From a virus (lineage: Duplodnaviria; Heunggongvirae; Uroviricota; Caudoviricetes): DNA of 51,476 nucleotides. Positions within the stretch are counted from its first letter, which is position 1; every line of letters starts with the position of its first letter. Position numbers: made by a program. The stretch lies in IMG/VR virus record IMGVR_UViG_2585427743_000006; one strand, written 5' to 3'. Below, in pieces: positions 13,801 through 16,800 of this stretch.

Positions 13801-16800
13801 GTGGTAGCCTACTTTCTTTTTTCATACATCATTGCCACCGCTCAGATGCTGATTAGCCACCGCATGGTTACGTTCATGGTATCTGCCCGGCCAGTATTGC
13901 GCCCCGTTTCGTGGAGGGATAAGTGGCCTGATTTTTTTCCTCAGCAACGCATCATGACAGTTGCGCGTGTCATAAGCGCCGTCTGCTGAAGCTTCTCTTA
14001 TTTTTCGGTGGGTCTGGTTAATCAGCCCCGGCAGTGCCTGCGCATCTGTCGTACCGCTGAGCGATAAATCGGCACAGATTATCTCATGCGTCACACCGTC
14101 TGCAGCCAGATGAAGTTTGCGCCATACTCTGCGCCTGTCAGCCCCATGTTGCCTGACTTTCCATTCGCCTTCCCCGAAGACCTTCAGGCCAGTAGCATCG
14201 ATAACCAGATGCGAGATTTCACCCCGGGTTGGCGTTTTTATGCTGATGTTAACGCTCTTTGCATGTTTGCTGACCAGAGAGTAGTCCGGGCAACGCAGCG
14301 GCAGAGCCATCAGCGTAAAAATCGAGTCAACGAAGCCCTGTAATGCCCGGAGTGGCAGATTAAACACGCGCTTCATCATCAGAACCGTGGTGATCGCCAT
14401 ATAGGTGTAGTGGAGAGTCCGACCACGACCTTCAGGCTTTGCGCAGTCAGTCCATGCAGCAATAGCAGATTCATCAAGCCAGATCGTCAGCGAACCACGC
14501 TGTCTGAGTGCCTTGTTGTAAGCTGACCAGTTGGTGATTTTAAACTTTTGCTTTGCCATGGTGACACGATGGGTAATGCTGCCAACTTACTGATTTAGTG
14601 TATGATGGTGATTTTAAGGTGCTTGCGTGGCTTCCATTTCCATCAGATGTCCTTCCTGCTCCGCTACTGAAGGCGTGGTGCGTAACGGCAAAAGCACCAC
14701 CGGACATCAGCGCTATCTCTGCTCTCACTGCCGTAAAACATGGCAACTACAGTTCACTTACACCGCCTCTCAGCCCGGTACGCACCAGAAAATCATTGAT
14801 ATGGCCATGAATGGCGTTGGATGCCGGGCAACCGCCCGCATTATGGGCGTTGGCCTCAACACGATTTTCCGCCATTTAAAAAACTCAGGCCGCAGTCGGT
14901 AACCTCGCGCATACAGCCGGGCAGTGACGTCATCGTCTGCGCGGAAATGGACGAACAGTGGGGATACGTCGGGGCTAAATCGCGCCAGCGCTGGCTGTTT
15001 TACGCGTATGACAGGCTCCGGAAGACGGTTGTTGCGCACGTATTCGGTGAACGCACTATGGCGACGCTGGGGCGTCTTATGAGCCTGCTGTCACCCTTTG
15101 ACGTGGTGATATGGATGACGGATGGCTGGCCGCTGTATGAATCCCGCCTGAAGGGAAAGCTGCACGTAATCAGCAAGCGATATACGCAGCGAATTGAGCG
15201 GCATAACCTGAATCTGAGGCAGCACCTGGCACGGCTGGGACGGAAGTCGCTGTCGTTCTCAAAATCGGTGGAGCTGCATGACAAAGTCATCGGGCATTAT
15301 CTGAACATAAAACACTATCAATAAGTTGGAGTCATTACCCATTCTCAGGTGCGTACATGATTATCAACCAAGTACCTATAAAAATAAAAATCTTCATCTT
15401 TTTATTTTCATGCATCTCTATTATATTTTTGTTACTGCATGAAAATAATGGAATATACATAACACAAACAACACAAATAAGTTATAGTGTTTTCATTATT
15501 GGGCTTTTTTTCATAAACCTGATGATTTTTATTTTTCTATTGCTTTACTATGTTTCTAATCAGAGACAAAGTTATCTCTTAATTCTTTCATTCGCGTTTT
15601 TGAGCAACACGTATTATTTATTAGAAGTGGCTATTATTTCTTTATCTCCGTTTGGTAACGATTTATCTACAATCTATCAGAAATCAAATGATATCGCAAT
15701 ATATTATCTATTCCGTCAGTTCAGCTTTATATCTATAATCTTTCTGGCTGTTTATTCCACCAATGTTAAAAATAAAAGTGTTTTAGAAGATAAAAGAAAC
15801 ATAATAATTGTTGTTTTGTCAATATTAATTCTTTTTATTACTCCGTTTGTAGCAAAAAATCTAAGCAGTGACAATATAAAATATAGTCTTAATATTATAC
15901 AATACTCGCTGAATCGTCATTTGCCGACGTGGAATATCGTGTACACCAAAATAATATCAGTATTTTGGCTTGTATTACTTATCAGCTCATGCATCAGCAT
16001 ACGTAATTACTCAAAAATATGGTTGTGTATAATACTTATTAGTATAGTGTCAGTATGCAATAATCTAATTTTATTGTATTTTATTGATAAATCCCATCCT
16101 GCATGGTACATGACAAAATTTCTTGAATTGATATCAATGATTTATATCATTTCAACACTCATGTATTATGTTTTCAGGAAATTAAATCATGCTAATCATA
16201 TGGCAATTCATGATCCACTAACGAATACATACAATAGAAGATACTTTATTGACTCATTGAAGAATATATCAAAACACCATGATTTCTCAGTAATAATGTT
16301 AGATATTGACAGTTTCAAAAGCATCAATGACAAATGGGGGCATCATATGGGTGATCAAGTCATAGTAATGGTTACCAGAATAATAAAAAAATCCATCAGG
16401 AAAGAGGATATATTAGGGCGCTTAGGCGGTGAGGAGTTCGGTATTATCATTAAAGGTAATACTCAAAAGCTCTTGCTATCAATTGCAGAGCGAATCAGAA
16501 AAAACATTGAAGAGCAATGCTCGGAAAAATTATTATCGCATGGACCTGAGAAAATAACTGTCAGTATTGGTTGCTTTACTTCAAAAGAGAATAATCTCAG
16601 CCCATCTGAAATGTTAGTCAATGCCGATAAAGCGTTATATCAAGCCAAAAGAACCGGAAAAAACAAGGTGATAATTCACTCAAAATAAACACCTTTTTAA
16701 AATACAGCCCCAATAAACTGCAGAATATTATCCCATATAATATCCTGCAGTTCGTAATGCACTATTCGATAATGGGTACTGTTGGCCATTCAATATCCGG

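What the first reader, a model, noticed from the sequence alone, without database searches (positions are those of the whole stretch)
15330..16688. IS1 inserted 17 bp upstream of an AT-rich membrane GGDEF diguanylate cyclase gene
The right end of IS1 (15,339) lies 17 nt before the start codon of a 443-aa GGDEF protein (RLGGEEF motif). IS1 ends can supply outward promoter elements or disrupt native regulation, so c-di-GMP output from this gene may be constitutively altered. The gene resembles the DgcX cyclase reported in enteroaggregative E. coli (from memory) and sits at the junction between the prophage tail end and the resistance island.
Basis: partly seen in the sequence, partly recalled or inferred. 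Interest (0 to 1): 0.6.

Follow-up and report, generated by a model that had tools for sequence, protein, structure and literature searches.

The report
IS1 unplugs dgcX from its promoter
A known, normally very strongly expressed biofilm-signal enzyme gene (dgcX) keeps only 17 bases of its own upstream DNA because an IS1 at the edge of an antibiotic-resistance island abuts it, so the gene is probably switched down rather than up; this is an ordinary kind of IS-driven change at a site IS1 hits repeatedly.

Summary
A complete 768-bp IS1 (14572-15339, + strand) ends 17 nt before the ATG of an intact 443-aa MASE4-GGDEF protein (15357-16688). That protein is DgcX of E. coli O104:H4 (437/443 aa identical; GGEEF and RxxD motifs intact).

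It is not a simple insertion. There is no 9-bp target duplication, and the IS1 is the terminal IS1 of a multidrug-resistance island that elsewhere sits at tRNA-Sec (selC).

Homology to the native dgcX leader starts exactly at -17. The published high-expression reporter fragment spans -412 to +18, so all of its upstream part except 17 nt, including the predicted promoter TTGACA-17-TAGTAT at -101 to -73, is gone from the gene's side.

No -10 element lies at the right distance from the outward -35 of IS1. Reduced expression, dependent on read-through from the weak, InsA-repressed IS1 promoter, is therefore more likely than activation. This is inferred, not measured.

The 9-bp target CATTCTCAG is a real IS1 hot spot. 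Two other genomes carry independent IS1 junctions at the same site, and seven independent IS1 events hit dgcX in 5,426 complete genomes. The exact junction of the window is found in none of them.

Verdict: a new allele of a known gene made by a known mechanism; modest interest.

The parts
369..14571 (.). Multidrug-resistance island segment. It holds TEM-1, IS26, a class 1 integron with dfrA7/qacEdelta1/sul1-type folP, Tn21-family (TnAs3) tnpA/tnpR, catA1, a glycosyltransferase and two decayed IS5-family elements. It is collinear with the selC (tRNA-Sec) island of E. coli 200164.
   Evidence: 99.9% identity to L004 12423-28105, minus one IS1B copy.
13822..14559 (-). Decayed IS5-family (IS903-like) transposase ORF directly left of IS1. 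It is transcribed away from IS1, so it cannot read into it.
   Evidence: DDE_Tnp_1_5, DDE_Tnp_1; annotated as a frameshifted IS5 family transposase in L004.
14572..15339 (+). Complete IS1 (768 bp) in the same orientation as dgcX, with no flanking 9-bp duplication.
   Evidence: It differs by 1 nt from the terminal IS1 of the selC island in strain 200164.
14579..14606 (+). IS1's own promoter-like site in IRL (CTGCCA-16-TATGAT). It is the only consensus-like + strand promoter upstream of dgcX.
   Evidence: PMC12428005 describes the IS1 promoter as extremely weak, overlapping IRL and repressed by InsA.
14627..14902 (+). insA (91 aa), the repressor of the IS1 promoter. The A6C frameshift motif is at 14878-14884.
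14821..15324 (+). insB' reading frame (the DDE transposase part of InsAB'). Its stop codon lies 32 nt before the dgcX ATG; there is no fusion.
15326..15331 (+). Outward -35-like hexamer TTGGAG in IRR, with no matching -10 in the flank.
   Evidence: PMC8764528 reports that IS1 carries an outward -35 box in its inverted repeat.
15340..15348 (+). CATTCTCAG (-17 to -9 of dgcX), a 9-bp IS1 target. EC05 duplicates the same 9 bp and PSS-08-2 has an IS1 junction at the same site.
15340..15356 (+). The only 17 nt of the native dgcX leader that remain. They include the Shine-Dalgarno AGGTG (15347-15351).
   Evidence: alignment breaks exactly at -17.
15357..16688 (+). dgcX, an intact 443-aa MASE4-GGDEF diguanylate cyclase.
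16716..16752 (.). Perfect hairpin between the convergent dgcX and tfa genes; a likely two-way terminator.
   Evidence: -15.8 kcal/mol on the + strand and -26.3 kcal/mol on the - strand, z about -5 for both.
16762..17346 (-). Lambdoid tail-fibre assembly gene, where the prophage late region begins.
   Evidence: (Caudo_TAP).

Best explanation
The gene is dgcX, a known AT-rich accessory gene. It sits inside lambdoid prophages between the tail-fibre genes and attR and normally carries about 340 bp of its own upstream DNA.

In this window an IS1-mediated event joined the right end of the terminal IS1 of a multidrug-resistance island to the IS1 target CATTCTCAG at -17 to -9 of dgcX. The native promoter region is therefore no longer next to the gene. 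It is either at least 15.3 kb away beyond the island or lost. Only the ribosome-binding site remains.

Transcription of dgcX can now come only from inside or through IS1, whose own promoter is weak and repressed by InsA. The flank offers no -10 for a hybrid promoter. The most likely result is that a normally very strongly expressed cyclase is strongly turned down while its coding sequence stays intact.

Shown: the anatomy, the identity of the gene, the exact break point, the absence of a TSD, the origin of the IS1, and recurrent use of the same target. Inferred: the direction and size of the expression change, and the way the island arrived (IS1 cointegrate or composite transposition).
For: Gene identity: 99% aa identity to O104:H4 DgcX, MASE4+GGDEF, GGEEF and RxxD intact. 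The gene is in 771 of 5,426 complete E. coli genomes.

Native context: ybhB-attR-leader-dgcX-tfa. The leader is conserved from about -340 at three different chromosomal sites.

Break point: homology to the native leader starts exactly at -17.

Promoter: the reporter that gave the highest expression of any E. coli DGC gene spanned -412 to +18 (PMC4287979 text and Suppl. Table S3). The best promoter match is TTGACA-17-TAGTAT at -101 to -73.

Window upstream: the only consensus-like + strand promoter is IS1's own. Relaxed scanning finds at most 8/12 matches, and no -10 lies 16-18 nt from TTGGAG.

Literature: the IS1 promoter is extremely weak and InsA-repressed (PMC12428005). IS1 upstream in the same orientation raised afaA only where a correctly spaced -10 existed; it lowered osmB and left ugd unchanged (PMC8764528).

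Origin of the IS1: no TSD, and the IS1 plus its left flank match the selC island.

Target: EC05 has a simple IS1B insertion that duplicates CATTCTCAG, and PSS-08-2 has an IS1A left junction at the same base.
Against: No expression data exist for this allele.

Richter et al. (PMC4287979) proposed by inspection that an IS1 end also holds a complete outward promoter. If so, dgcX could get low constitutive transcription with a usable leader.

Transcription from upstream DNA can run through IS1 (PMC12428005). IS1 upstream of ugd left its transcript level unchanged.

The native transcription start has not been mapped in any paper I could read, so the -101 to -73 promoter is a prediction.

The left end of the island lies outside the window, so the mode of arrival is untested.
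Confidence: 0.62

Rival explanations
1. IS1 activates dgcX or makes it constitutive. Transcription would start at an outward promoter in the IRR-proximal part of IS1, or read through from insAB', and use the retained Shine-Dalgarno sequence. DgcX would then be produced without its RpoS-assisted native control.
For: IS1 and dgcX are co-oriented, the SD sequence is retained, and no intrinsic terminator was found on the + strand between insA and dgcX. Richter et al. predicted a -35 and a full outward promoter at an IS1 end upstream of pgaA. IS1 hybrid promoters are documented (PMC9330008, PMC8764528). Read-through into IS1 is documented.
Against: No -10-like hexamer lies 15-19 nt from TTGGAG. The best internal candidate is ATGACA-19-GAACAT, 8/12 with an unfavourable spacer. 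The IS1 promoter is extremely weak and self-repressed. The neighbour to the left is transcribed away from IS1. From established knowledge, not tested here: the mostly untranslated insB' frame is a substrate for Rho, which is why IS1 insertions are polar. Any such transcription would have to rival a promoter with a perfect -35.
Confidence: 0.2
2. The adjacency of island and dgcX is an assembly mis-join across IS1. The strain would really have a simple IS1 insertion at -17, with the native leader just beyond it, and the island would be at selC.
For: In O104:H4 the island-IS1 and dgcX lie in direct orientation 3.5 Mb apart. That is exactly the geometry in which collapsing two IS1 copies would give this window. 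The join occurs in none of 5,426 complete genomes, and the exact junction sequence was not found in the two other collections scanned. A real one-step deletion or inversion cannot produce it.
Against: The window spans an IS26 copy and two decayed IS5-family elements besides the IS1 without breaks, which points to long reads that easily bridge 768 bp. IS1 cointegration or composite transposition gives the same structure naturally. The right junction is a genuine IS1 target in any case, so the separation of promoter and gene stands either way.
Confidence: 0.1
3. The repeated IS1 hits in the dgcX leader are selected, because switching off a costly, very highly expressed cyclase is advantageous in some niches. 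The alternative is that they merely reflect the taste of IS1 for AT-rich DNA.
For: Five independent IS1 junctions lie in the 62-nt leader among 686 genomes carrying it, against about 0.09 copies expected at genome-wide IS1 density. All of them separate the predicted promoter from the gene or delete the gene. DgcX represses motility when overexpressed (PMC10459773).
Against: The leader is extremely AT-rich and the target has G/C ends, which fits the known IS1 target preference (recalled from the IS1 literature, not tested here). Events are singletons: 679 of 686 leaders are intact. No fitness data exist.
Confidence: 0.15

Closest known systems
DgcX of EAEC/STEC O104:H4 (Richter et al. 2014, PMC4287979)
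   Same: 437/443 aa identical. Same MASE4-GGDEF architecture, GGEEF A-site and RxxD I-site. Same position next to a lambdoid tail-fibre assembly gene.
   Different: The native upstream region, including the promoter that gives the very high expression, is replaced from -18 outward by IS1 and a resistance island.
IS1 hybrid-promoter activation (Prentki et al. 1986; afaA in ST131, PMC8764528)
   Same: IS1 lies directly upstream of a gene in the same orientation, with the outward -35 box of the inverted repeat present.
   Different: No -10 element at the required spacing. The case resembles osmB, where IS1 lowered expression, more than afaA.
IS1 simple insertion in the dgcX leader of E. coli EC05 (NZ_CM169495.1)
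   Same: Exactly the same 9-bp target CATTCTCAG, 17 nt from the ATG.
   Different: EC05 has IS1B (97.3% identical) in the opposite orientation, with both copies of the TSD and the native leader directly on the other side. The window has no TSD and a resistance island on the other side.
selC (tRNA-Sec) multidrug-resistance island of O104:H4-like and West/East African E. coli (e.g. strain 200164, NZ_CM128590.1)
   Same: 99.9% identical gene content and order, and the same terminal IS1 with 1 nt different in 768.
   Different: In those genomes the IS1 is followed by the island integrase and tRNA-Sec. In the window it is followed by dgcX.
Phage morons (promoter-gene-terminator units in late regions of lambdoid phages)
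   Same: In relatives dgcX lies on the phage side of the attR core, between tfa and att. It has its own predicted promoter and flanking hairpins, and its GC content is far below that of the phage.
   Different: dgcX was found in none of 50,697 deposited phage genomes. In the window the promoter part of the unit is missing.

Membership tests
DgcX (E. coli accessory diguanylate cyclase) | Near-identity to the O104:H4 DgcX protein | tested here: met
   437/443 aa identical, no gaps; 99.3% nt identity to C227-11.
DgcX (E. coli accessory diguanylate cyclase) | N-terminal MASE4 membrane domain plus C-terminal GGDEF domain | tested here: met
   Pfam MASE4 at 40-274 (E 2e-36) and GGDEF at 283-437 (E 3.5e-44).
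DgcX (E. coli accessory diguanylate cyclase) | Intact A-site GG(D/E)EF, with I-site RxxD ending five residues before it | tested here: met
   RKED-ILGRL-GGEEF, with GGEEF at 357-361. E359/E360 are the residues mutated in PMC10459773.
DgcX (E. coli accessory diguanylate cyclase) | Very high expression from its native upstream region (-412..+18 reporter) | tested here: not met
   Only -17..-1 of that region is present. Expression itself cannot be tested with these tools.
DgcX (E. coli accessory diguanylate cyclase) | Diguanylate cyclase activity | not testable with these tools
   Inferred from intact motifs and from published mutant data on near-identical proteins.
IS1 family insertion sequence | About 768 bp with imperfect terminal inverted repeats | tested here: met
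   768 bp; 23 of the terminal 35 positions complementary.
IS1 family insertion sequence | insA and insB' frames with an A6C -1 frameshift site | tested here: met
   Pfam InsA and DDE_Tnp_IS1 domains; AAAAAAC at 14878.
IS1 family insertion sequence | 9-bp direct target duplication flanking a simple insertion | tested here: not met
   Flanks are GACACGATG and CATTCTCAG. The right flank is nevertheless a proven IS1 target, duplicated in EC05. This indicates a rearrangement, not a simple insertion.
IS1-generated hybrid promoter | Outward -35 box in the terminal inverted repeat | tested here: met
   TTGGAG at 15326-15331, 8 nt from the end.
IS1-generated hybrid promoter | -10 hexamer in flanking DNA 16-18 nt downstream of that -35 | tested here: not met
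   GGTGCG, GTGCGT and TGCGTA at spacers 16-18.
Phage moron | Located inside prophage borders, with its own promoter and terminator and deviant base composition | tested here: inconclusive
   In relatives the gene lies between the attR core and tfa, with a predicted promoter and hairpins and 29.7% GC. It is absent from deposited phage genomes. The window lacks the att side.

The most novel reading that the evidence does not exclude
The dgcX leader, and above all the 9-bp site CATTCTCAG at -17 to -9, may act as a recurrent IS1 landing pad that natural populations use to switch off or delete a costly, very highly expressed c-di-GMP synthase. In this strain the same site would have served as the entry point for a whole multidrug-resistance island, coupling gain of resistance to loss of a biofilm signal.
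Probability: 0.12. Interest if true: 0.5.

Novelty: new member of a known kind. Interest (0 to 1): 0.3.

Why it matters

Simply detecting the gene, as genome surveys do, would score this strain as DgcX-positive. The gene has in fact lost its promoter region. That is a practical warning for genotype-to-phenotype calls, and such strains are natural 'off' alleles for testing what DgcX contributes.

The finding also documents a precise IS1 hot spot, and a resistance island sitting at an unusual place. Beyond that it is routine IS-driven genome plasticity.

Tried and rejected
1. Same junction elsewhere. A junction query against 5,426 complete E. coli genomes and exact-pattern scans of metagenome and species-representative genome contigs found nothing. 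Scans for the predicted reciprocal junction also found nothing.

2. Source genome or context. An exact-protein look-up gave only native ybhB-dgcX contexts. The best prophage matches lack dgcX.

3. One-step IS1 adjacent deletion or inversion from the selC island. Rejected, because in O104:H4 the two loci are in direct orientation 3.5 Mb apart.

4. Homologous recombination between an EC05-type inverted IS1 and the island IS1. Rejected, because it would put the integrase and selC, not the island, next to dgcX (reasoning).

5. Known RNA element in the lost leader. Rfam gave only a sub-threshold CssrB-like hit on the opposite strand near the upstream hairpin, and nothing relevant in the window.

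6. dgcX in deposited phage genomes. None found.

7. Povolotsky & Hengge 2016 (PMC4686209) could not be read.

8. Structure prediction and the large protein searches were not used, because identity to a characterised protein made them unnecessary.

Full report
**Observation.**
- Window 14572-15339 is a complete 768-bp IS1 on the + strand. It has imperfect terminal inverted repeats, insA (14627-14902), the insB' frame (14821-15324) and the A6C frameshift motif at 14878.
- Seventeen nucleotides later (CATTCTCAGGTGCGTAC, with the Shine-Dalgarno AGGTG at 15347-15351) the ATG at 15357 opens a 443-aa ORF ending at 16688.
- Pfam finds MASE4 (40-274) and GGDEF (283-437) in that ORF. The sequence shows RKED-ILGRL-GGEEF, an intact I-site and A-site.
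- The gene has 29.7% GC against 51.8% for the window.
- A lambdoid tail-fibre assembly gene, tail fibre, lom and J follow on the minus strand. A resistance island lies to the left.
- Every number in the finding is correct.

**Identity of the gene.**
- The ORF is 437/443 identical to DgcX of O104:H4 C227-11. At DNA level it is 100% identical to strain 120899.
- The gene occurs in 771 of 5,426 complete E. coli genomes.
- Richter et al. 2014 (PMC4287979) described DgcX as an extra diguanylate cyclase of EAEC, always next to lambdoid prophage DNA. [quoted passage not shown]
- Cimdins-Ahne et al. 2023 (PMC10459773) showed that motif mutants E359A/E360A lose the phenotypes. Those residues are present here.

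**Native anatomy.**
- In O104:H4 and ten other genomes the order is bioA-ybhB-(745 bp)-dgcX-tfa-stf-lom-J.
- The lambda att core (TTAGTATAAAAAAGC) lies about 90 bp after ybhB. This is read directly from the sequence printed. It agrees with the first 105 nt of the intergenic region being common to nearly all E. coli. dgcX therefore lies on the phage side of attR.
- At three different chromosomal sites (attB, uspF, zinT) the sequence shared with dgcX starts about 340 bp upstream of the ATG.
- That block holds a strong hairpin with a T-tract (-23.8 kcal/mol, z -5.6), which is also found in HK97, HK106 and Stx phages.
- It also holds the best promoter match of the region, TTGACA-17-TAGTAT at -101 to -73.
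- The published reporter fragment ran from -412 to +18 (Suppl. Table S3), so all measured promoter activity lies in that stretch.

**What the window has instead.**
- Alignment with two native alleles breaks exactly at -17. Everything upstream is IS1.
- There is no 9-bp duplication: the left flank is GACACGATG and the right flank CATTCTCAG.
- The IS1 differs by one base in 768 from the terminal IS1 of a resistance island in strain 200164.
- Window 369-15339 is collinear with that island at 99.9% identity, apart from one extra IS1B in 200164.
- In 200164, in a Tanzanian isolate and in O104:H4 this island sits at the integrase next to tRNA-Sec.
- The window is therefore a join between the island's terminal IS1 and position -17 of dgcX.

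**The junction is a genuine IS1 target.**
- E. coli EC05 carries IS1B (97.3% identical, opposite orientation) as a simple insertion that duplicates exactly CATTCTCAG at -17 to -9.
- PSS-08-2 has IS1A in the window's orientation, with its left end at the same base. dgcX and the tail and head genes are deleted on the other side.
- Further independent events:
  - F829: simple insertion, TSD -59 to -51.
  - 50EVAW: IS1 after -62, with a deletion.
  - TUM2820: replicative inversion, with the TSD -50 to -42 split over two junctions.
  - MB46: IS1 after +139, with a deletion.
  - NCTC11023: simple insertion at +508 to +516.
- That makes seven events in the complete-genome set plus the window, three of them at one 9-bp site.
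- At the genome-wide IS1 density (median 10 copies per genome), about 0.09 copies would be expected in the 62-nt leader over 686 genomes. Five are seen. This is a rough figure.
- The leader is extremely AT-rich and the target has G/C ends, which fits the target preference recalled from the IS1 literature. Selection against a costly cyclase is possible but unproven.
- Disruption is rare overall: 679 of 686 leaders are intact.

**How the join arose.**
- In O104:H4 the island-IS1 and dgcX lie in direct orientation. A one-step IS1 adjacent deletion would remove 3.5 Mb, and an inversion would place the reversed leader, not dgcX, next to IS1.
- The structure is what IS1 cointegrate formation or composite transposition of the island into the leader would give. 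A mis-join across two direct IS1 copies during assembly would give the same picture.
- The window runs without breaks through several other repeated elements, which argues for long reads and a real join. The far-left junction is outside the window, so this remains inference.
- Either way the right junction, and hence the separation of gene and promoter, is real.

**Consequence for expression (inferred).**
- On the + strand upstream of dgcX the only consensus-like promoter is IS1's own, at 14579-14606. PMC12428005 describes it as extremely weak and InsA-repressed.
- The outward -35-like TTGGAG in IRR faces GGTGCG, GTGCGT or TGCGTA at 16-18 nt, so no hybrid promoter is predicted. Relaxed scanning of the last 290 nt of IS1 gives at most 8/12 with a 19-nt spacer.
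- In ST131, IS1 upstream in the same orientation raised afaA only where a properly spaced -10 existed. It lowered osmB and left ugd unchanged (PMC8764528).
- The neighbouring IS5-family gene is transcribed away from IS1.
- The most likely outcome is a large drop from the native level. Residual expression would depend on read-through of insAB' transcripts, which could still be translated because the Shine-Dalgarno sequence is kept.
- Richter et al. suggested by inspection that an IS1 end may hold a full outward promoter. Low constitutive expression therefore cannot be excluded.

**Comparison and novelty.**
- The protein is a member of DgcX and the element is a member of IS1. The arrangement fails the test for an IS1 hybrid promoter.
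- The exact junction is in none of 5,426 complete genomes and was not found in two other collections.
- None of the papers mentioning dgcX that I opened connects it with IS1 (one search lists them; searches cover the two that treat dgcX at length).
- It is a new allele produced by a well-known mechanism. Its interest lies in being a natural promoter-less dgcX, in the precise IS1 hot spot, and in the unusual location of the resistance island.

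Noticed in passing
L017 5269-6036 (EC05), L022 5111-5878 (PSS-08-2), L003 8313-9080 (F829), L015 4058-4825 (50EVAW), L023 4078-4845 and 7741- (TUM2820), L016 4157-4924 (MB46), L024 4635-5402 (NCTC11023): Seven independent IS1 events at dgcX in other complete E. coli genomes: simple insertions, adjacent deletions reaching the terminase genes, and one replicative inversion. Five fall in the 62-nt stretch before the ATG, and two use the window's own 9-bp target.
   Followed up: yes
L002 7364-7378 (O104:H4 C227-11): The lambda att core lies between ybhB and dgcX, so dgcX is inside the prophage borders (b-region position). 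It looks like a phage moron rather than flanking host DNA picked up by specialised transduction, as Richter et al. suggested. Yet it is in none of 50,697 deposited phage genomes.
   Followed up: partly
L002 7723-7759: A conserved 14-bp-stem hairpin followed by TTTTCTTT, about 260-295 nt upstream of dgcX (-23.8 kcal/mol). It is shared with HK97, HK106, HK75 and Stx phages. A sub-threshold Rfam CssrB hit lies on the opposite strand (44 bits against a cut-off of 76). It is absent from the window.
   Followed up: partly
window 16716-16752: A perfect 16-17-bp hairpin between the convergent dgcX and tail-fibre assembly genes. It is a likely two-way terminator and marks the 3' end of the dgcX module; prophage matches without dgcX start at about 16774.
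   Followed up: partly
window 16805-16900, minus strand: Rfam IS009 match (101 bits, cut off by the end of the searched range; gathering score 117) inside the tail-fibre assembly gene.
   Followed up: no
L004 27338-28105 (strain 200164): The same IS1 also lacks a target duplication at its usual place next to the selC-island integrase (flanks GACACGATG and GAAGACGCA). It had therefore already mediated a rearrangement there.
   Followed up: partly
window 1-368: The first 368 bases, upstream of blaTEM-1, do not match the corresponding part of the 200164 island, which has an IS91-family remnant there. This segment was not identified.
   Followed up: no
L019 2598-3037 (WP2-S18-ESBL-07): A dgcX variant with about 94% nt identity (85 genomes fall in the 90-95% band). 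Its leader is diverged: the -35 reads TTAATA and the -10 region has a 1-nt insertion, while CATTCTCAGGTG is conserved. In this genome it lies next to decayed phage remnants.
   Followed up: no
L001 7030-7272 (strain 120899): ybhB is annotated as a 243-nt CDS, against 477 nt in the other genomes, and the upstream genes are shifted by 234 nt. This suggests an alteration in ybhB in the strain whose dgcX DNA is identical to the window's.
   Followed up: no
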